Source of the DNA: a phage
Direction: 5' to 3' (one strand)
Sequence record: PZ671982.1
DNA length: 43,947 nucleotides
Of this stretch, positions 9,638 to 38,926 are shown piece by piece; positions within the stretch are counted from its first letter, which is position 1, and each line of letters opens with the position of its first letter. Under the pieces are notes generated by a model that worked only from the letters and a program-made list of their open reading frames with translations, made no database searches and was not told where the DNA came from. The translations under genes and the position numbers were made by a program.

Positions 9638-10363
9638 ATGGGTTATCAACTTCCTAACGGGTCCAGCGTCCAGATTGGGTCCGTACTGGGCAACGGCATC
9701 GCAGTTACGGCAGCGACCAACGCCGAGGCGTCAATCTCCGATCTTACGAAAGGATGCGTTATCACCTGCGCGGCTTCTCATGGCCTGCAAGTTGGTGACG
9801 TGGTTATGTTCACTAAAACCCCGTGGGTCCGTGCGCTGAACCGCGCGTTTATCGTAGGTAAAGTGGAAGAGAACAACGTGACGCTGGCGCGCTTCGATAC
9901 TCAAGACGTCACCAAATACCCGACCGGTGCTTTCGGCGTAGGCACACCTGGTGAGGTGGTGAAGGTGTCGAGCTTTATCGACTTCCCGTTTATCACTAAC
10001 GTTGCCGTGTCTGGTGGCGACCAGCAGACCACCACCTTCCAGCCGTTGCAGGTGAATACCGCGATCAGTCTGAACACCACGAAAAACCCGTTGGTCCAGA
10101 CCTACACTTTCACCCACGACGAAGAAGACCCGATCCGCCCGATTCTGGAAGACCTGGACGACACACAGAAAACCACTGTGATTAAGTTCACTAACCCGGC
10201 AGCGGCAAGCGGCAAAGGTGAAATCCGTATTTACCCGGCTAAGGTGTCTTTCCGCAAGATTCCGTCGGCTGAAGTAAACAACGTGGAGACGGTTGAGTCC
10301 ACCCTCACTATGCAGTCCGATATGGTTATTTACCGTAAGGACTTGGTTGAGGCGCTGTCGTAA
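9638..10363 (+). CDS. major tail protein (V-like)
   Basis: 241 aa, directly upstream of G/GT chaperone pair and tape measure; followed by terminator. Confidence 0.6.
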   Translation: MGYQLPNGSSVQIGSVLGNGIAVTAATNAEASISDLTKGCVITCAASHGLQVGDVVMFTKTPWVRALNRAFIVGKVEENNVTLARFDTQDVTKYPTGAFGVGTPGEVVKVSSFIDFPFITNVAVSGGDQQTTTFQPLQVNTAISLNTTKNPLVQTYTFTHDEEDPIRPILEDLDDTQKTTVIKFTNPAAASGKGEIRIYPAKVSFRKIPSAEVNNVETVESTLTMQSDMVIYRKDLVEALS

Positions 10364-10394
10364 TTTGGTCGCTTAAATAGCGGGTGTTAATATG

Positions 10395-10416
10395 GGGCCA
10401 GCACGGCCCCTTTTTT
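10395..10416 (+). terminator. rho-independent terminator (GGGGCC-agca-GGCCCC + TTTTTT)
   Basis: Seen in sequence after major tail gene. Confidence 0.6.
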
Positions 10417-10432
10417 ATTGGAGAATACTACA

Positions 10433-10795
10433 ATGGCTAAAGCACCACTCTTCACACTTGACCCTAAGCCTACTTTTAAGCTGCCGATTGAAATCCCGCG
10501 CCCAGGCGAAAACGAACCGGGCAAAATGACGTTTACCGTGCGCCACCGCCCTATCGACGAATTTTCGCAGACCATGCAGGACACTGAGCGCAAATTGTCG
10601 GAGTATGACGACAATGACCCGGAAGGATTTAACGTTATGGTCGAGGCCATCATGCATGTCGCTGAAGGCTGGAATCTCCCAGACGAATTTAACGCGGAGA
10701 ACGTCCGCCGCCTGGTGGTCAACTACCCTCGCGCGTTCGGAGTGTTCCATACGTCGTACTATCTCGAACTGATGGGATTGCGTGAAAAAAACTAA
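10433..10795 (+). CDS. tail assembly chaperone G-like
   Basis: 120 aa from ATG 10433 (RBS GGAG); acidic; ends in A7 slippery run; located between major tail and tape measure genes. Confidence 0.6.
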   Translation: MAKAPLFTLDPKPTFKLPIEIPRPGENEPGKMTFTVRHRPIDEFSQTMQDTERKLSEYDDNDPEGFNVMVEAIMHVAEGWNLPDEFNAENVRRLVVNYPRAFGVFHTSYYLELMGLREKN

Positions 10796-11109
10796 TTGAG
10801 GCGGCGCGACGCTTTTATGGCCCGCCGCCACCCTCCGAAGATTTAGCCGCGAGTTTATGGGGCGCGGCCCCTGAAGATGTTTGCCCCCCGGTTGCACTAT
10901 GGCCCGACAACGCGAAGATAGTCGCAGTCTTCACAGATTGCTCCACGCAATGGCGCACCGGATTCGGTGGCGCATACGGCATCGACTACGGCGTACTGGA
11001 ATGGCTTTTTAAGATGCACGGCATCGAAAACGCGCAACGTGCGTTTAAAGATATCAAGCTAATGGAACGAGTTGCGCTGGATGAAATGGCGCGACAGAAC
11101 CCCGCATAA
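10433..11109 (+). CDS. tail assembly chaperone GT-like fusion via programmed -1 frameshift at A AAA AAC (10786..10792)
   Basis: The -1 frame is open from 10786 to TAA 11107-11109 (about 106 codons) with no usable start codon of its own; slippery heptamer sits at the last codons of G. Confidence 0.5.
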
Positions 11110-11110
11110 C

Positions 11111-11426
11111 GGAGCGGGACAGGCGGGACGTCCCGTTCTGTCCCGCACCTCTAAAAACTGCATATTTACCCACCAACATTGCATAAATTAAAAGCGGGAC
11201 AGGGGTGCTGTCCCGATCTGTCCCGCCCCCAAAATGTGAATATCTATTCAGTTTTCGCGCATAAAACAAACGGGACAAAAAGCGGGACAGAATGGGGCGG
11301 GACTAAGCGGGACAGCACCCCTGTCCCCGCCAGTGCTGCCGCGGTTTTTAGCCGATCGGGACAGGCGGGACAAAGCCCAGTCTTTCAGACTAGACGGGGG
11401 TCATTGGCCCCCCTCGTCTGAGACTG
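11111..11426 (+). repeat. iteron array A: about 13 direct and inverted GCGGGACA(G) copies, palindromes GGGACAG-N5-CTGTCCC, terminal imperfect hairpin
   Basis: Read directly; 3' ~160 bp closely similar to 38551..38710. Confidence 0.8.
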
Positions 11427-11494
11427 AATAAGGTTTGTTTTAAATTCGCTGATACAATGACCGACGGCAACTGCATAAAAAGGGGGACTGCATA

Positions 11495-14140
11495 ATGGCA
11501 GATCAGGCAGCGGGCATCACGCTCAAGGCGGACGTCGCGCAAATTAAAACGGCTAATACTGTGCTGGACACATTTGCGCAGAAATCCGAGAACACAGAAC
11601 AGAAAGTAAAGAAATTAAACGACACCCTCGGCAAGTCGAAAACGGTTACTGGCGACGCCGCGGGCGGAATGGAAAAGTTAGCGACTGAATCGCAGCGTGC
11701 CGCCGATGGTATGACGAAACAGGAGCGACTCGCCAGCCGATTAGGCATGTCAACCAAAAACCTGGGATTCGCATCGCGGAACGCCGCATTCCAGTTACAG
11801 GATATCGCGGTGACGCTTGAAATGGGTATGCCGGTGCATCGAGTCATGCTTCAGCAGCTACCACAGCTTACTGGGGCGTTTGGCGGGTTGGGGAATACGC
11901 TGCGTTATGTCGTCGGCACCCTCGGACCGATAGGGATCGGAATCGCTGCATTAACGGCAACGCTAGGCGTAGGGGTGGCAATTACGACCCGCGCAGAGAA
12001 CCAGGTGGCGGCGCTTAACAAGACGCTGGCGCTGTCCGGTAATATTTCTGGCCTCACCGCTAACCAGATCCTGGTGCTATCCGAGAACGCCGAGCGGATG
12101 GGTGGGTCATTCCGCAAGACGCGTGACACAATTCAGTCACTGGCGGCGGCGGGTGTGAAGGCTGGTGCTGACTTCGGCGCACTGGCGAAGGTGGTGAATG
12201 ATTTTGCAAAGACGTCGGGCCAGCCTATTGAGGACGTGGTTGCGTCGGTGGCGAAGCTCTCCACTGACCCTGTGGGCGGCTTGCGCGCACTGGCGGATAA
12301 ATATCACGTCGTAAACGAAGCGCAGATCCAGCAGGTGCAGTCGCTTGTGGATATGGGTCGTGAGACAGATGCAGTTGCGCTGGCGAACAAAACCGCCTCG
12401 GCATCGTTCACCACTATGACCAATGAGGTCAAGGCGAACATGGGCACGCTTGAGCGGTCGATGAACGTCGTCACATCGGCAGCCAAATCAATGTGGGATG
12501 CCATTCTGGATGTTGGACGCGCGCAGTCCTCGAATGAGTCCGAGATGAAAGCGCGCGAATCATTGCAGCGCATGACCACGGCTTATTATGCCGAGATGAA
12601 AGCGGTAAACGCTGCCGGTGGGGTAATGACTGAAGCGCAGAAAGCACGTATTAACATGCTTTACAGCGAACTGGTCGCCCAGGAAAAGGTAGTGGCGTCG
12701 CTCACCCTGCGTAACCGTGCGGAGCGAGACAACGCCCGCACCGCAGACGAATCGGCGAAGGCTAACGAGGAGGCCAACCGCGCCGCCAGCGACCGCGCCG
12801 CATTTGAGAAGGAATTCGCCACCAACGCGAAGAAGCGCGCTGACGAGATCGCCCGCCTCAATTTGCTGAACAAGCGCGGTGTTATTAGCGAGAAAGAACT
12901 AGCCGAGGCTGTGAAGCAGGTAAACGAGCGCTACAAAGACCCTGCCCCGAAGAAGGCCGCGGCTGTTCGCGCGGATGCCGGTATGAAAATGCTGGAAGTC
13001 GCACGGAGCGAACTGGCCCAGCTTCGAGAATCCGGCAAGCAGATCGAAGCCAACGCGTCTACGCAGACCCGCACGCAACGCGCTCAGGCGGCCCTAAACA
13101 AGCTGATCGCGGATAATGAGCAGTTAATCGCCGCAAGCAAAGAAAGGGCGCTAACGGCAGCGGAAAAGCAGCAGTTGGTCGAATTCGGACGCGTGAAGGA
13201 AGTGCGCGAGCAGATCGTCGAAGAAGCCAAATTGCTGGACGCGAAGGAGAAGCAGGTCAAGGCGCACGCGCAGATTGATGCCTTCGTTAAGAACCAGAAC
13301 GCCGAACTAAAAGCCACCGCCGCGGGCTATGCGCTTTCCACTCGCGAAGCGGCAAACCTGCGCGAAGAATTGCAGCTAATCGACCGCCTGAAGCGTGTGG
13401 GCGCTAACGATACCGATATTGACAAGGCGGTGTCTAAGCTGCGGGAAGTGCAGGAGGCGCAGACCGGTGCTAACGCCTCGCTAGGGGATGGATTCAGTCG
13501 CGGGCTTAAGGATAGCGTGGATGAAATGGGTAACGGATATACGCAGATGGCGTCGCTCACGAAATTTACATTCAGCGCTATGCAAGACACGATGAACGAG
13601 TTTTTCGAGACTGGCAAGCTGAACGCAAAGGATATGGTTAAATCCATCCTGAGCGAGTTAATCAAGCTGGCTACCTCGCAGGCGTTCAAGTCGATCGTTA
13701 GCGCTTTCGGTGGTGACGGCGGCAAAAACGGATTGTTCGGCGCTATCTTCTCGGGCCTCACTAAGAATGCAGACGGCGGAGCGTACGCAGGGGGCAATCT
13801 CGCGGCTTATTCGGGGAAAGTGGTAAGCCAGCCCACCTTTTTCAGTTATGGCGTCCAGGCGTTCGCTAAGGGCGCAGGATTGATGGGCGAGGCCGGTCCC
13901 GAGGCCATCATGCCTCTGAAGCGCGGGCCGGACGGGAAACTGGGCGTTGCCGCTTCGGGTGCTGGCGGCGGTGGTATGGTCGTGACGACTAACGTTTACA
14001 CGGGGGCGGGTAAAACAGACACCAGTGTGAGCGGACCAGATCCGCGCACAGCGCAGGCGTTCGGCAAGCAAATCACCGAGGCGGTGAAGGCCGAGATCGT
14101 GAAAGCGACGAAACCGGGTGGTGTACTTTACAAACGATGA
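11495..14140 (+). CDS. tail tape measure protein
   Basis: 881 aa, Ala/Gln-rich coiled-coil, Gly-rich C-terminal segment; position after G/GT chaperones. Confidence 0.85.
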   Translation: MADQAAGITLKADVAQIKTANTVLDTFAQKSENTEQKVKKLNDTLGKSKTVTGDAAGGMEKLATESQRAADGMTKQERLASRLGMSTKNLGFASRNAAFQLQDIAVTLEMGMPVHRVMLQQLPQLTGAFGGLGNTLRYVVGTLGPIGIGIAALTATLGVGVAITTRAENQVAALNKTLALSGNISGLTANQILVLSENAERMGGSFRKTRDTIQSLAAAGVKAGADFGALAKVVNDFAKTSGQPIEDVVASVAKLSTDPVGGLRALADKYHVVNEAQIQQVQSLVDMGRETDAVALANKTASASFTTMTNEVKANMGTLERSMNVVTSAAKSMWDAILDVGRAQSSNESEMKARESLQRMTTAYYAEMKAVNAAGGVMTEAQKARINMLYSELVAQEKVVASLTLRNRAERDNARTADESAKANEEANRAASDRAAFEKEFATNAKKRADEIARLNLLNKRGVISEKELAEAVKQVNERYKDPAPKKAAAVRADAGMKMLEVARSELAQLRESGKQIEANASTQTRTQRAQAALNKLIADNEQLIAASKERALTAAEKQQLVEFGRVKEVREQIVEEAKLLDAKEKQVKAHAQIDAFVKNQNAELKATAAGYALSTREAANLREELQLIDRLKRVGANDTDIDKAVSKLREVQEAQTGANASLGDGFSRGLKDSVDEMGNGYTQMASLTKFTFSAMQDTMNEFFETGKLNAKDMVKSILSELIKLATSQAFKSIVSAFGGDGGKNGLFGAIFSGLTKNADGGAYAGGNLAAYSGKVVSQPTFFSYGVQAFAKGAGLMGEAGPEAIMPLKRGPDGKLGVAASGAGGGGMVVTTNVYTGAGKTDTSVSGPDPRTAQAFGKQITEAVKAEIVKATKPGGVLYKR

Positions 14141-36185: not shown

Positions 36186-38447
36186 ATGAAAAATTACTTA
36201 ATCGAGTTCGGCACCGTCGGCGGTAAGTACGGCAAGCGTGTTAAAAACCATTCTATGACGGAAGCCGAGTTTATGGAATACGTCGCGGATACAGTGGAGC
36301 TGTCCGGCGTTACCATTACCGGCGACGAGACTAAGAAAGAATACGATGCGGTGAAGGGTAAGGCGGAAGGCATTGTCGCCACCACTAAAGGCCGCGGTCG
36401 TCGCGCCACGGAAGTGGGTGTGCGTTCGGTTTTGTTCTACGATCTGGACCGCACGGACAACCGAACCCTGGGTCGTGTTAAGCGGGCATTTCGTAAATCC
36501 GGCCTGTCCCACGTCTACTACTCCACTACTGGCGACCGCCATCCGCTGAAGGGCGGCACACGTTGCGCACGTTTCCTGGTACTAACCAATAAACCGGTCG
36601 ACGTTGCCGATTTGGGGCGTGCGCAGTTCGCACTGTTACACGACCTCGGACTGGAAGACGTACCGTTTGACGATTGCACAAAAAACGTCAACAACCTGCA
36701 GTTCCTTCCGCATTCCGGATCTACCGTGTCTTGCCACTACGGCAAGCGCGCTAATGTGCGTCGTCTGCTTCGCCTGGCGGATAAGCTGGGCGTGGAGAAG
36801 GAGGAAGTACGCCGCGAGCTTACCCAGGGCGACGACGCAGTGGCGGACGGTATTCTGGACTGGTGCTTCCAGGCAGGATTCGAACCGCTGTCGTCCGGTC
36901 GTGGTTATGAAGTGCCATGCCCGAACGAACATCTGCATAGTGGCGAAGGGTCCACCGCTATCATGGTTAAGGATGGCGAGATCCGTTTCAAGTGTATGCA
37001 CACCGGCAACGAGTGTTGCTCGGAACTGAACAGACACCAGCACCTGGCGCTACGTCTTATCGGGATCCCGGACCACCTGAACGTCGAACCGCACAACATG
37101 TCACGTAAGCAGATTGCCGCCATCCTTCCGGGACTGGACGACGAGGAAGTGGAATCGTGCTATGCGCATATTGTTGATGCGGTTGGCGACGGCGAAGAAT
37201 ATGGCGTGTGCACCGATGCGGACCTGGATAACGAGCCGGTCGCACTATTCAGTAAGCACGACCCGATCATCGAAGGGCTGATAAACTTCAAATCGACCTG
37301 GTATATGGCGGGCGAGTCTAACATAGGTAAGTCCTTCTATGTGCTGGGGCAGATGGGCGCGGTTGCCGCTGGTATTCCGTTTGGCGGTGCGAAGGTAGTC
37401 CAGTCGCATTGCTTCTATTTTGATGCGGAAGGCGGCGAAGCCTCCAACCAGCGCAAAGAAGCATTGCAGATTAAATACGAGCACGACCTGGACAAGCTGC
37501 ACATTATCGACCTGCAGTCTCGCGGCTGGGATATCACCAGCAAGTCCGGTTTGCGCGAAGTTATCAGCTTTATCAACCGCACCGCTAATGGCGAACCGGT
37601 TGGCCTGGTGGCCTTCGACTCACTTAACCAGACGGTCGCGCTGCGGTCCGCCGATGCTAAACCGTTCGACGAGAACAACGCCAGCGATATGGGTGAAGTG
37701 GTCAAAGCGCTGAAAGCCATTGCGGAAAATACAGGTGGCAGTGCGGGCGTCATCCACCACCCAGCGAAAGGGGCAAACGGCAGCAGATCCCCGCGCGGGT
37801 CCGGTGCGCTTCATGGTGCTGTCGATTCAGCTTTCTTCCTGGAACAGCCGGACGACAACCAGCCGGGACAACTTAACCTGTACCACGAAAAATCACGTAA
37901 CGGCATCAAGCAAGCGCCGCGTGGCTTCGTCCTGCTCAAGTGCAAGGTGAAGGTGGATCTCCGCAAGTCAGAAGCGTTCGAGGCGCACCAGTCCACCAGC
38001 ACCGGGCCGGACTTCGGCGACGTCGTTGCCGGTTGGGACGTCAAACCAATTGCGTCCACGCCACGCGACGAGACTCTGTACCTCGTACCGGTCGCCCTGG
38101 CACCGTTCGCCATCGAACAGGCGAAGGCTGCAGGCAAAGCAGCAGTTAAGGAAGAAAACACCGCCGGTCCGCGCAACGAAAAAGAGAAAGTGCTTTATGC
38201 GGCCCTGGAAAAACTGATGGAAGATAACCCGGACCATACCGGATTCAGTAAATCGGCAATTGTACGCCAGGCTGGACTCGCTAAGGGTGGCACTTCGACG
38301 AAGGCAATCGACGATATGGTGGACCGCGGCGTGATTGGTTTCTATACAGATCCGCACACCGGGGCCATCTATGGGTCATCGAATTTAGTCATCAAATCGG
38401 ATATCCCCATAACGCTTTCGGCGACAGATGACGATCTGAAAGACTAA
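36186..38447 (+). CDS. primase / replicative helicase-like protein (C-terminal RecA-like ATPase)
   Basis: 753 aa; Cys/His cluster CPNEHLHSGEG...CMHTGNEC; Walker A MAGESNIGKS, Walker B-like LVAFDSLN; followed by iteron array. Confidence 0.65.
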   Translation: MKNYLIEFGTVGGKYGKRVKNHSMTEAEFMEYVADTVELSGVTITGDETKKEYDAVKGKAEGIVATTKGRGRRATEVGVRSVLFYDLDRTDNRTLGRVKRAFRKSGLSHVYYSTTGDRHPLKGGTRCARFLVLTNKPVDVADLGRAQFALLHDLGLEDVPFDDCTKNVNNLQFLPHSGSTVSCHYGKRANVRRLLRLADKLGVEKEEVRRELTQGDDAVADGILDWCFQAGFEPLSSGRGYEVPCPNEHLHSGEGSTAIMVKDGEIRFKCMHTGNECCSELNRHQHLALRLIGIPDHLNVEPHNMSRKQIAAILPGLDDEEVESCYAHIVDAVGDGEEYGVCTDADLDNEPVALFSKHDPIIEGLINFKSTWYMAGESNIGKSFYVLGQMGAVAAGIPFGGAKVVQSHCFYFDAEGGEASNQRKEALQIKYEHDLDKLHIIDLQSRGWDITSKSGLREVISFINRTANGEPVGLVAFDSLNQTVALRSADAKPFDENNASDMGEVVKALKAIAENTGGSAGVIHHPAKGANGSRSPRGSGALHGAVDSAFFLEQPDDNQPGQLNLYHEKSRNGIKQAPRGFVLLKCKVKVDLRKSEAFEAHQSTSTGPDFGDVVAGWDVKPIASTPRDETLYLVPVALAPFAIEQAKAAGKAAVKEENTAGPRNEKEKVLYAALEKLMEDNPDHTGFSKSAIVRQAGLAKGGTSTKAIDDMVDRGVIGFYTDPHTGAIYGSSNLVIKSDIPITLSATDDDLKD

Positions 38448-38550
38448 ATTTTGCGCGCATTGGTTGCCATTTTGAGTGTTTTTAACTGGTCGCATTGGTT
38501 GCCGTGTAGTGTAAATATAGTGAATAGTTATGCAGTTTTATTGCATAAAG

Positions 38551-38710
38551 TAAGCGGGACAAAAAGCGGGACAGACCAGGGGCGGGACAAAGCGGGACAG
38601 CACCCCTGTCCCGCCCCGGATGACGCGGCCTGGAGAGGAGCGGGACAGGCGGGACAAACCCCAGTCTTTCAGACTAGACGGGGGTCAGTTGGCCCCCCTC
38701 GTCTGAGACT
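38551..38710 (+). repeat. iteron array B: 6 direct + 1 inverted GCGGGACA copies and terminal imperfect hairpin; flanked by inverted CGCATTGGTTGCC repeats and AT-rich tracts
   Basis: Read directly; closely similar to 11268..11426. Confidence 0.8.
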
Positions 38711-38869
38711 GCATAAAATCCTGGATTGCATAATACACGGCAGCACATTGGAAATCGCGGTCGTCGCTGAACTAGGCAACCAATGCGAGTTGCAGAACGG
38801 TTGGTGAAAATGCAGTTTGCAGTCACAGCAGATAGCGATCGACTTTTTCATGCGCGTGATTAATATTGG

Positions 38870-38898
38870 TTGCATCCATGCCCGCACCCTGCTATATT
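38870..38898 (+). promoter_or_regulatory. sigma70-like promoter (TTGCAT-17-TATATT) from tandem ATATTGGTTGCA motifs
   Basis: About 30 nt upstream of RBS AAGAGGA and ATG 38927. Confidence 0.5.
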
Positions 38899-38926
38899 GG
38901 TTGCACACCAACAAGAGGACTGAACG

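What the first reader, a model, noticed from the sequence alone, without database searches (positions are those of the whole stretch)
10784..10792. Programmed -1 ribosomal frameshift site (A AAA AAC) generating a G/GT-type tail chaperone fusion
The G-like ORF ends ...CGT GAA AAA AAC TAA. The -1 frame is open from 10786 for about 106 codons to TAA 11107-11109 and has no usable start codon of its own. The A7 run supplies a canonical X XXY YYZ heptamer exactly at the last codons of G. This reproduces the conserved G/GT frameshift of long-tailed phages.
Basis: partly seen in the sequence, partly recalled or inferred. Interest (0 to 1): 0.45.

Follow-up and report, generated by a model that had tools for sequence, protein, structure and literature searches.

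The report
Tail chaperone G/GT frameshift site
This is the expected "slip back one base" signal by which a long-tailed E. coli phage makes a small amount of a longer tail-assembly chaperone; it looks real and is strongly conserved, but it is an ordinary example of a well-known phage trick that public annotations of this phage group have mostly missed.

Summary
The window is a Dhillonvirus (HK578-like E. coli siphophage). ORF G (10433-10795; Pfam Phage_TAC_4, E=9e-24) ends CGT GAA AAA AAC TAA. The -1 frame is closed by TGA at 10783-85 and then open for 107 codons to TAA at 11107-09 (Pfam DUF1799, E=8e-21). Its first start codon is at codon 77. The two frames therefore overlap only in the heptamer A_AAA_AAC (10786-92).

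In 85 related loci (54 distinct contexts, T identity 32-98%), A_AAA_AAC or G_GGA_AAC sits in the same register, exactly where T homology begins. In 52 of the 54 contexts a 0-frame stop follows immediately. The only invariant residue of G is the Asn encoded by that AAC. Substitutions in T fall mostly on third codon positions (28/16/71).

The best explanation is a programmed -1 ribosomal frameshift giving G (120 aa) and GT (225 aa). Output is probably low, because both heptamers shift only 0.16-0.9% in E. coli reporters. The adjacent stop and a hairpin 7 nt downstream are possible stimulators, unproven.

The same signal is already annotated in T1-like relatives (Stevie, Pocis76). None of the six Dhillonvirus records I examined annotates it. 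It is a new member of a known kind, of low to moderate interest.

The parts
9638..10363 (+). Major tail (tube) protein gene, upstream neighbour of G
   Evidence: Pfam Phage_tail_3 E=6.7e-33; phrog_584 major tail protein E=5e-74
10394..10416 (+). Intrinsic-terminator-like hairpin GGGGCC-AGCAC-GGCCCC followed by a T run, between the tube gene and G
   Evidence: Terminator scan. Stevie has a terminator annotated at the equivalent place. That it lowers G/GT expression relative to the tube protein is inferred.
10420..10424 (+). Shine-Dalgarno-like GGAGA, 8 nt before the G start codon
   Evidence: Read directly from the sequence
10433..10795 (+). Gene G: tail assembly (tape measure) chaperone, 120 aa, 14.0 kDa, product of standard decoding
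   Evidence: Pfam Phage_TAC_4 E=9e-24, full length; phrog_569 E=1e-40. Same coordinates as HK578 gp15. Size.
10783..10785 (+). TGA that closes the -1 frame immediately upstream of the heptamer and so limits where a shift can occur
   Evidence: Translation of the -1 frame; overlap = 7 nt
10786..10792 (+). Slippery heptamer A_AAA_AAC (Lys119-Asn120 of G), the proposed -1 frameshift site
   Evidence: Conserved in register in 85/85 related loci as A_AAA_AAC or G_GGA_AAC. N120 is the only invariant residue of G.
10793..10795 (+). 0-frame stop TAA directly abutting the heptamer; possible 'shifty stop' stimulator
   Evidence: A stop is adjacent in 52/54 distinct contexts. It is maintained by unusual -1-frame codons: CTA is 26% here against 6% background, and AGR Arg is 15/15 against 8%. 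A stimulatory role is inferred.
10800..10829 (+). Predicted stem-loop (GGCGGCG ... CGCCGCC) starting 7 nt after the heptamer; candidate 3' stimulator
   Evidence: -17.1 kcal/mol. z about -2 against other windows of the same genes, but only about -1 against synonymous recoding. Analogous hairpins with different sequence occur in many, not all, distant lineages.
10792..11109 (+). T segment, -1 frame: 105 codons plus TAA, translated only as the C-terminal part of GT (225 aa, 25.6 kDa; join 10433..10792,10792..11109)
   Evidence: Pfam DUF1799 E=8e-21; phrog_680 E=1e-30. phrog_17368 matches both the G and the T parts. Third-position-biased variation 28/16/71. Size.
11495..14140 (+). Tape measure protein gene, downstream neighbour, 385 bp after T
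   Evidence: Pfam TMP_2 E=1e-43 and Tape_meas_lam_C E=5.5e-14; phrog_24

Best explanation
Most ribosomes translating gene G stop at TAA 10793-95 and release the 120-aa chaperone G. A small fraction slip back one base on A_AAA_AAC (10786-92). The Lys and Asn tRNAs re-pair from AAA-AAC to AAA-AAA. Decoding then continues with CTA at 10792 in the -1 frame for 105 more codons, giving a 225-aa G-T fusion with the junction ...LREKN/LIEAARR.... By analogy with lambda, the shared G part binds the tape measure protein and the T part recruits the tail tube protein, so a fixed low GT:G ratio is set by translation. Shown here: the anatomy, the homology of both parts to phage chaperone families, the gene order, the coding nature of the -1 frame, and very strong conservation of heptamer, register and position. 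Inferred: that the shift is ribosomal, its efficiency (probably of the order of 1% or less), the roles of the adjacent stop codon and of the hairpin 7 nt downstream, and the binding partners. Within this explanation, either two tRNAs slip together in the P and A sites (or during translocation), or the Asn tRNA slips in the P site while the ribosome waits on the stop codon. Both give the same protein.
For: The sequence and both frames are as described, and the frames overlap by exactly the heptamer. G = Phage_TAC_4 (E=9e-24) and T = DUF1799 (E=8e-21), flanked by the tube and tape measure genes; a PHROG profile spans both parts. The -1 frame has no start codon before codon 77. All 85 related loci (54 distinct contexts, T identity 32-98%) carry A_AAA_AAC (39 contexts) or G_GGA_AAC (15 contexts) in the 0-frame register exactly where T homology starts. 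In alignments of 24 lineages the only invariant residue of G is N120, K119 is nearly invariant, and in T K2 and L3 are invariant. The base before the heptamer varies, so the constraint is on nucleotides, not on the amino acid. Variable sites by codon position are 28/16/71 in T and 10/6/79 in G. In most distant relatives T is followed within -28 to +50 nt by a long ORF, the expected tape measure position. Two Drexlerviridae records with the same Pfam pair and the same A_AAA_AAC_TAA annotate the joined CDS, and the Stevie paper mentions the conserved frameshift (PMC4319613). A_AAA_AAC is the proven IS1 shift site (PMC4066793). [quoted passage not shown]
Against: No fusion protein has been observed for this phage or any Dhillonvirus. 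[quoted passage not shown] A functional yield therefore needs either a very low requirement for GT or stimulators that are not demonstrated. Support for the downstream hairpin in this lineage is weak once amino-acid sequence and codon usage are controlled (z about -1). There is no SD-like element 10-14 nt upstream in this lineage. None of the six Dhillonvirus records examined annotates the join. Viable isolate Bas84 has a T ORF whose last about 14 residues are replaced, so not all of T may be essential, unless that is an assembly error.
Confidence: 0.88

Rival explanations
1. Transcriptional slippage. RNA polymerase stutters on the run of seven A (10785-10791) and adds one A to a fraction of mRNAs. 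Standard translation of those mRNAs then gives the G-T fusion.
For: The window has A7 at the site. Slippage at homopolymer runs yields trans-frame products in some bacterial genes and IS elements (review PMC5009743). The predicted protein would be almost the same (...EKK LIE...).
Against: Fifteen of 54 contexts use G_GGA_AAC, which has only three A in a row, and many others have exactly six A. What is conserved is the X_XXY_YYZ pattern in the 0-frame register, a requirement of tRNA re-pairing and not of polymerase stuttering. From general knowledge, efficient slippage by E. coli RNA polymerase needs runs of about 9 or more. A conserved stop codon directly after the heptamer has no role in this model.
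Confidence: 0.05
2. T is an independent gene, translated from a non-canonical start (ATT 10795, as annotated in HK578 RefSeq) or by termination-reinitiation at the G stop. No fusion protein is made.
For: HK578 RefSeq annotates a separate CDS 10795..11109. The G stop and ATT overlap (TAATT), a geometry that can support coupling.
Against: There is no ATG/GTG/TTG in frame before codon 77 and no SD-like sequence at a usable distance before 10795. The codon at that position is ATC, ATA, AAA, AGA or AGG in other lineages, so no start codon is conserved, whereas the heptamer is. T homology (KKLIEAAR) begins upstream of that codon, within the heptamer itself.
Confidence: 0.04
3. The arrangement is a chance or decayed feature: the -1 ORF is a remnant and the A run has no function.
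For: AAAAAAC alone is not enriched in the window (3 found, 7.55 expected). Most public annotations ignore the -1 ORF.
Against: A 107-codon open frame with a significant Pfam match. Third-position-biased variation. Conservation of heptamer, register, position and gene order in 54 distinct contexts across very divergent phages.
Confidence: 0.02

Closest known systems
Tape measure chaperone frameshift of T1-like phages (Drexlerviridae), e.g. Citrobacter phage Stevie (KM236241) and Hafnia phage Pocis76 (MW689258)
   Same: Same Pfam pair (Phage_TAC_4 + DUF1799). Same signal A_AAA_AAC_TAA at the very end of G. Same position after the tube gene and its terminator. A hairpin at the same distance downstream. 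The joined CDS is annotated and mentioned in print (PMC4319613).
   Different: T is only about 36% identical. In those phages the tape measure gene follows T within tens of bases, whereas here a 385-bp repeat-rich gap intervenes. In Dhillonvirus records the join is not annotated.
Phage lambda G/GT frameshift (Levin et al. 1993; Xu et al. 2004, 2013, 2014, as cited in PMC5009743)
   Same: Two ORFs between the tube and tape measure genes. A -1 shift on an X_XXY_YYZ heptamer near the end of G. The downstream ORF has no start of its own. A low-level fusion whose G part binds the tape measure protein and whose T part binds the tube protein (function is by analogy only).
   Different: Lambda uses G_GGA_AAG, with 5 sense codons before the G stop. 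Here the site is A_AAA_AAC with the stop directly adjacent. Lambda G and T belong to other Pfam families (Phage_TAC_2, Phage_tail_T), and profile comparison finds no similarity. [quoted passage not shown]
IS1 insA-insB' frameshift
   Same: Identical heptamer A_AAA_AAC working in E. coli at low efficiency, without an established stimulator (PMC4066793).
   Different: Unrelated proteins (transposase). From memory, the 0-frame stop in IS1 is not directly adjacent to the heptamer.
g-t frameshift sites of haloarchaeal siphoviruses HCTV-1 and HCTV-2
   Same: They use G_GGA_AAC and A_AAA_AAC respectively for the tail chaperone frameshift (PMC5009743), the same two heptamers found in this family.
   Different: Archaeal hosts. 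No sequence relationship was tested here.
E. coli dnaX gamma/tau frameshift
   Same: A -1 shift on an A-rich heptamer read by the slippery E. coli Lys tRNA, with a downstream stem-loop.
   Different: dnaX uses A_AAA_AAG with an upstream SD and a strong hairpin and shifts at about 50%; the shift leads to early termination. Here the A-site codon is AAC, there is no upstream SD, and the shift extends the protein.

Membership tests
G/GT-type tail assembly chaperone frameshift (Xu et al. 2004 class) | Pair of ORFs located between the major tail (tube) protein gene and the tape measure protein gene | tested here: met
   Tube gene 9638-10363 (Phage_tail_3), G 10433-10795, T to 11109, tape measure gene 11495-14140 (TMP_2, Tape_meas_lam_C). 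An atypical 385-bp gap lies before the tape measure gene.
G/GT-type tail assembly chaperone frameshift (Xu et al. 2004 class) | Downstream ORF overlaps the 3' end of the upstream ORF in another frame and has no initiation signals of its own | tested here: met
   The -1 frame is open from 10786. Its first ATG/GTG/TTG is at codon 77, and there is no SD before 10795.
G/GT-type tail assembly chaperone frameshift (Xu et al. 2004 class) | Slippery sequence in the correct register inside the overlap | tested here: met
   A_AAA_AAC at 10786-92 is the whole 7-nt overlap.
G/GT-type tail assembly chaperone frameshift (Xu et al. 2004 class) | Arrangement conserved among relatives despite protein divergence | tested here: met
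   85 loci, 54 contexts, T identity down to 32% and G down to 17%. The heptamer is A_AAA_AAC or G_GGA_AAC at the same place.
G/GT-type tail assembly chaperone frameshift (Xu et al. 2004 class) | Downstream frame evolves as protein-coding sequence | tested here: met
   Variable sites by codon position 28/16/71; Pfam DUF1799 E=8e-21.
G/GT-type tail assembly chaperone frameshift (Xu et al. 2004 class) | Fusion protein made at a low fixed ratio, required for tail assembly, absent from virions | not testable with these tools
   Needs mass spectrometry, western blot and genetics.
Lambda gpG / gpT protein families (Phage_TAC_2, Phage_tail_T) | Sequence homology to lambda G and T | tested here: not met
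   The window proteins hit Phage_TAC_4 and DUF1799 instead. Lambda proteins hit Phage_TAC_2 and Phage_tail_T. hhalign probability is 0.6% and 0.1%.
Phage_TAC_4 + DUF1799 chaperone pair (T1-like 'tape measure chaperones') | Both Pfam domains above the gathering score, in adjacent -1-related frames, joined at A_AAA_AAC + stop | tested here: met
   84.5 bits (cut-off 21.1) and 74.5 bits (cut-off 26). The same pair and the same signal are in Stevie and Pocis76, where the join is annotated.
Stimulated -1 frameshift signals (dnaX / IS911 / IS3 type) | Stable stem-loop or pseudoknot 5-9 nt downstream of the heptamer, under selection | tested here: inconclusive
   Hairpin 10800-10829, spacer 7 nt, -17.1 kcal/mol. 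z about -2 against other windows, but z about -1 (p about 0.15) against synonymous recoding. Over 23 lineage representatives the mean z is -0.87.
Stimulated -1 frameshift signals (dnaX / IS911 / IS3 type) | Shine-Dalgarno-like element about 10-14 nt upstream of the heptamer | tested here: not met
   None in the window's lineage. GAGG/GGAG lies at -10 to -12 in 7 of 24 lineages only.
Tail assembly chaperone fold (solved structures) | Structural similarity of G to solved chaperones | tested here: inconclusive
   The AF2 model is of mediocre confidence (pLDDT 69, 3-sequence alignment). Foldseek against the PDB gave no hit with E<=0.001, and sequence search of the PDB found nothing.
Transcriptional slippage sites | Long homopolymer run as the conserved element | tested here: not met
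   There are seven A here, six in many relatives and three in the G_GGA_AAC clade. The conserved feature is the codon-register pattern.

The most novel reading that the evidence does not exclude
The recoding signal of this whole chaperone family may be a 10-nt cassette, heptamer plus the directly adjacent stop codon (A_AAA_AAC_UAA/UGA or G_GGA_AAC_UGA), rather than the heptamer alone. A deliberately weak AAC heptamer would then be boosted by ribosome pausing on the stop (a -1 'shifty stop'). The GT:G ratio would depend on release-factor activity and hence on host physiology. The evidence is that the stop is adjacent in 52 of 54 contexts and is kept by otherwise rare codons in the T frame, while the heptamers alone give only 0.16% in E. 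coli reporters.
Probability: 0.3. Interest if true: 0.45.

Novelty: new member of a known kind. Interest (0 to 1): 0.27.

Why it matters
The main practical value is for annotation. None of the six Dhillonvirus records examined, including the HK578 and JL1 RefSeq entries, annotates the GT fusion. They either omit the T ORF, start it at ATT, or call only its last 31 codons. This is an essential-type tail assembly protein in a genus much used in E. coli phage work. Biologically, the family offers a clean natural data set: more than 20 lineages share two weak 'AAC' heptamers, each followed directly by a stop codon. That data set could be used to ask how bacteria-infecting phages set a very low chaperone ratio, and whether a stop codon can stimulate -1 slippage. 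The general phenomenon is well established, so a specialist would not be surprised.

Tried and rejected
1. The protein database search with the fused GT sequence returned only 3 hits (two G-like, one T-like) and no in-frame fusion or named protein. NCBIfam has no model for either part.
2. Sequence search of the PDB with GT found nothing.
3. AlphaFold2 on G (3 sequences) and T (2 sequences) gave pLDDT 69 and 59. Foldseek of the G model against the PDB gave no hit below E=1. The fused GT sequence and alignments containing IMG/VR sequences were not accepted by the structure tool.
4. Profile comparison with lambda G and T showed no similarity.
5. Folding 10786-10880 as a whole is not exceptional against shuffles (z=0.10). 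Only the local hairpin stands out, and less so against synonymous recoding.
6. Rfam on 10300-11600 gave only sub-threshold microRNA-hairpin matches in the repeat region and nothing at the frameshift site.
7. Literature searches for Dhillonvirus or HK578 plus 'frameshift' found nothing relevant.
8. An upstream SD-like stimulator was considered and rejected for this lineage.
9. Independent initiation at ATT, transcriptional slippage and chance were considered and rejected as the main explanation, for the reasons given under the rival explanations.

Full report
**What the window is.** A 2-kb stretch around the finding is 94-95% identical to many Escherichia and Shigella phages of the genus Dhillonvirus, including HK578, JL1, SSL-2009a, EP23 and StarDew. 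In HK578 RefSeq the gene coordinates are the same as in the window up to 11109.

**Checking the observation.** The sequence reads ...CGT GAA AAA AAC TAA in the frame of an ORF that starts at ATG 10433, preceded by GGAGA at 10420-24, and ends with TAA at 10793-95.
- The -1 frame carries TGA at 10783-85. It is then open from 10786 for 107 sense codons to TAA at 11107-09.
- The two frames therefore overlap by exactly seven bases, the heptamer A_AAA_AAC at 10786-92.
- The first ATG/GTG/TTG in the -1 frame is codon 77, which leaves 31 codons. Several GenBank records annotate precisely this stub as a hypothetical protein.
- AAAAAAC occurs only three times in the window on both strands, against 7.55 expected. 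The motif is not enriched; its placement is the signal.

**What the two ORFs are.**
- The upstream ORF matches Pfam Phage_TAC_4 over its full length (E=9e-24). The -1 ORF matches DUF1799 (E=8e-21).
- PHROGs places both in tail families. One profile (phrog_17368, 213 positions) matches the G part with its first half and the T part with its second half.
- Upstream lies the tube protein gene (Phage_tail_3). It is followed by a terminator-like hairpin at 10394-10416. Downstream lies the tape measure gene (TMP_2 + Tape_meas_lam_C).
- This is the gene order that defines the G/GT class.
- G is 120 aa (14.0 kDa). The fusion join(10433..10792,10792..11109) would be 225 aa (25.6 kDa) with junction ...LREKN-LIEAARR....

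**Comparative evidence.** A scan of IMG/VR with the T sequence returned 78 loci. Together with GenBank loci, I analysed 85 loci giving 54 distinct sequence contexts, with T identity from 98% down to 32%.
- Every locus has a slippery heptamer in the 0-frame register of the upstream ORF, exactly where T homology begins.
- The heptamer is A_AAA_AAC in 39 contexts and G_GGA_AAC in 15.
- The base before the heptamer and the codon that contains it vary, so the constraint is on the nucleotide pattern.
- In alignments of 24 lineage representatives, G is as little as 17% identical to the window protein. Its only invariant residue is the C-terminal Asn encoded by AAC, and the preceding Lys is nearly invariant.
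- In T, K2 and L3 are invariant, and KKLIEAAR is the best conserved block.
- Among 21 distinct Dhillonvirus sequences, variable sites fall 28/16/71 on codon positions 1/2/3 of the T frame and 10/6/79 of the G frame. The -1 frame is therefore under purifying selection as a protein.
- In most distant relatives a long ORF, the expected tape measure gene, follows T within -28 to +50 nt.

**Is it already known?** Two Drexlerviridae records, Citrobacter phage Stevie and Hafnia phage Pocis76, carry the same Pfam pair and the identical A_AAA_AAC_TAA.
- Both annotate the joined CDS. [quoted passage not shown]
- None of the six Dhillonvirus records I opened (JL1, StarDew, SM_A2, Pandora71, Bas84, HK578) annotates a join. 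HK578 gives T as a separate CDS starting at ATT 10795.
- Literature searches for Dhillonvirus or HK578 with 'frameshift' found nothing relevant.
- The general phenomenon, its lambda paradigm and the function of G and GT are summarised in Atkins et al. 2016 (PMC5009743). [quoted passage not shown]

**Mechanism: the heptamer.** The pattern X_XXY_YYZ in register is what tRNA re-pairing requires. Its replacement by G_GGA_AAC in one clade, which has only three A in a row, argues for ribosomal frameshifting and against polymerase stuttering on an A run.
- The heptamers are weak in E. coli. In the systematic reporter study of Sharma et al. 2014, A_AAA_AAC gave 0.163% alone, 0.189% with the IS911 stimulators and 0.739% with the IS3 pseudoknot. 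G_GGA_AAC gave 0.164, 0.222 and 0.888%.
- In the same study A_AAA_AAG gave 0.29, 4.3 and 39%, and lambda's G_GGA_AAG gave 0.28, 3.8 and 43% (PMC4066793, Table S3).
- The authors attribute this to poor tolerance of the AAC-to-AAA re-pairing in the bacterial A site.
- A_AAA_AAC is nevertheless the proven low-level shift site of IS1.
- So either GT is needed at well under 1% of G, or other elements raise the yield.

**Mechanism: the adjacent stop.** The 0-frame stop directly abuts the heptamer in 52 of 54 contexts.
- In the T frame this requires Leu to be CTA or CTG and the next codon to begin with A.
- CTA is used in 26% of contexts against 6% background. In the G_GGA_AAC clade the next residue, Arg, is encoded by AGA or AGG in 15 of 15 contexts against 8% background.
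- In lambda five sense codons separate the heptamer from the stop.
- This suggests, but does not prove, that pausing on the stop contributes (a 'shifty stop').

**Mechanism: the hairpin.** A stem-loop (GGCGGCG...CGCCGCC, 10800-10829, -17.1 kcal/mol) starts 7 nt after the heptamer.
- It is about 2 SD more stable than other 45-nt windows of the same genes. Hairpins of different sequence occur at the same place in Stevie, Pocis76 and several metagenomic lineages.
- Against synonymous recoding that keeps the amino acids and codon usage, the window-type sequence is only about 1 SD better (p about 0.15). Over 23 lineage representatives the mean z is -0.87, and some lineages have no hairpin at all.
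- I regard the hairpin as a plausible but unproven stimulator.
- No SD-like element lies 10-14 nt upstream in this lineage.

**Rival explanations.**
- Transcriptional slippage is disfavoured by the G_GGA_AAC clade and by the register constraint.
- Independent initiation at ATT, as in the HK578 annotation, is disfavoured because that codon is ATC, ATA, AAA or AGR elsewhere. There is also no SD, and T homology starts upstream of it, inside the heptamer.
- Chance or decay is excluded by the conservation and the coding signature.

**Comparison with known families.** In function and architecture this is a G/GT-type frameshift.
- By sequence it belongs to the Phage_TAC_4/DUF1799 pair of T1-like phages, not to lambda's Phage_TAC_2/Phage_tail_T. 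Profile comparison with lambda G and T is negative.
- Structure prediction did not help.

**Verdict.** This is a new, unannotated member of a well-known kind. The modest extra interest lies in the family-wide use of a weak AAC heptamer locked to an adjacent stop codon. I put the confidence that GT is made by -1 ribosomal frameshifting at this site at about 0.88.

Noticed in passing
window 11110-11494 and 38448-38926: The 385-bp gap between T and the tape measure gene is packed with the octamer CGGGACAG in both orientations. There are 8 exact copies there, and 13 in the whole window against 1.6 expected. A second cluster of 4 copies lies just after the helicase-primase gene. About 210 bp (roughly 11230-11440 and 38515-38725) form a direct repeat with 78% mean column identity over the aligned stretch. 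It contains the GGGACA units, TGCATAA motifs and a strong hairpin. The clusters are present in all Dhillonvirus loci and absent from other T-bearing phages. No Rfam family matches. They could be iteron-like or regulator-binding arrays; the function is unknown.
   Followed up: partly
window 10394-10416: Terminator-like hairpin GGGGCC-AGCAC-GGCCCC plus a T run lies directly after the tube protein gene, so G/GT lie downstream of a terminator. Stevie has a terminator annotated at the same place.
   Followed up: partly
NC_019724 (HK578) 10795-11109; JL1, StarDew, SM_A2, Pandora71, Bas84 records: Public annotation of this locus is inconsistent. T is given as a separate CDS starting at ATT, or only its last 31 codons are called, or it is omitted. 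G is labelled 'tail length tape measure protein' in RefSeq.
   Followed up: yes
window 36680-36686: A second A_AAA_AAC in the shift-competent register lies inside the helicase-primase gene (36186-38447; codons ACA AAA AAC). The -1 frame closes after about 25 codons. It is probably incidental.
   Followed up: partly
L006 (Escherichia phage Bas84, PQ850611), T ORF: After ...FKDIKL the T reading frame diverges and runs into the intergenic repeats, giving 122 codons. The nearly invariant M93/E94/L98 block is lost. This is either a real deletion in a viable isolate or an assembly error.
   Followed up: partly
L088 (Klebsiella phage Opt-79, Rogunavirinae) 495-512: At the homologous junction this phage has GCA AAG GTC TAA instead of the heptamer. 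The -1 frame still reads K-G-L-K-R-A-V-Y like Stevie's T. This suggests a shift on the A_AAG tetramer, a third variant of the signal in the same family.
   Followed up: no
related loci L054, L056, L069, L071, L074, L077, L080: A GAGG/GGAG element lies 10-12 nt upstream of the heptamer in 7 of 24 lineages, the spacing at which SD-like sequences stimulate -1 shifts in dnaX. It is absent from the window's lineage.
   Followed up: no
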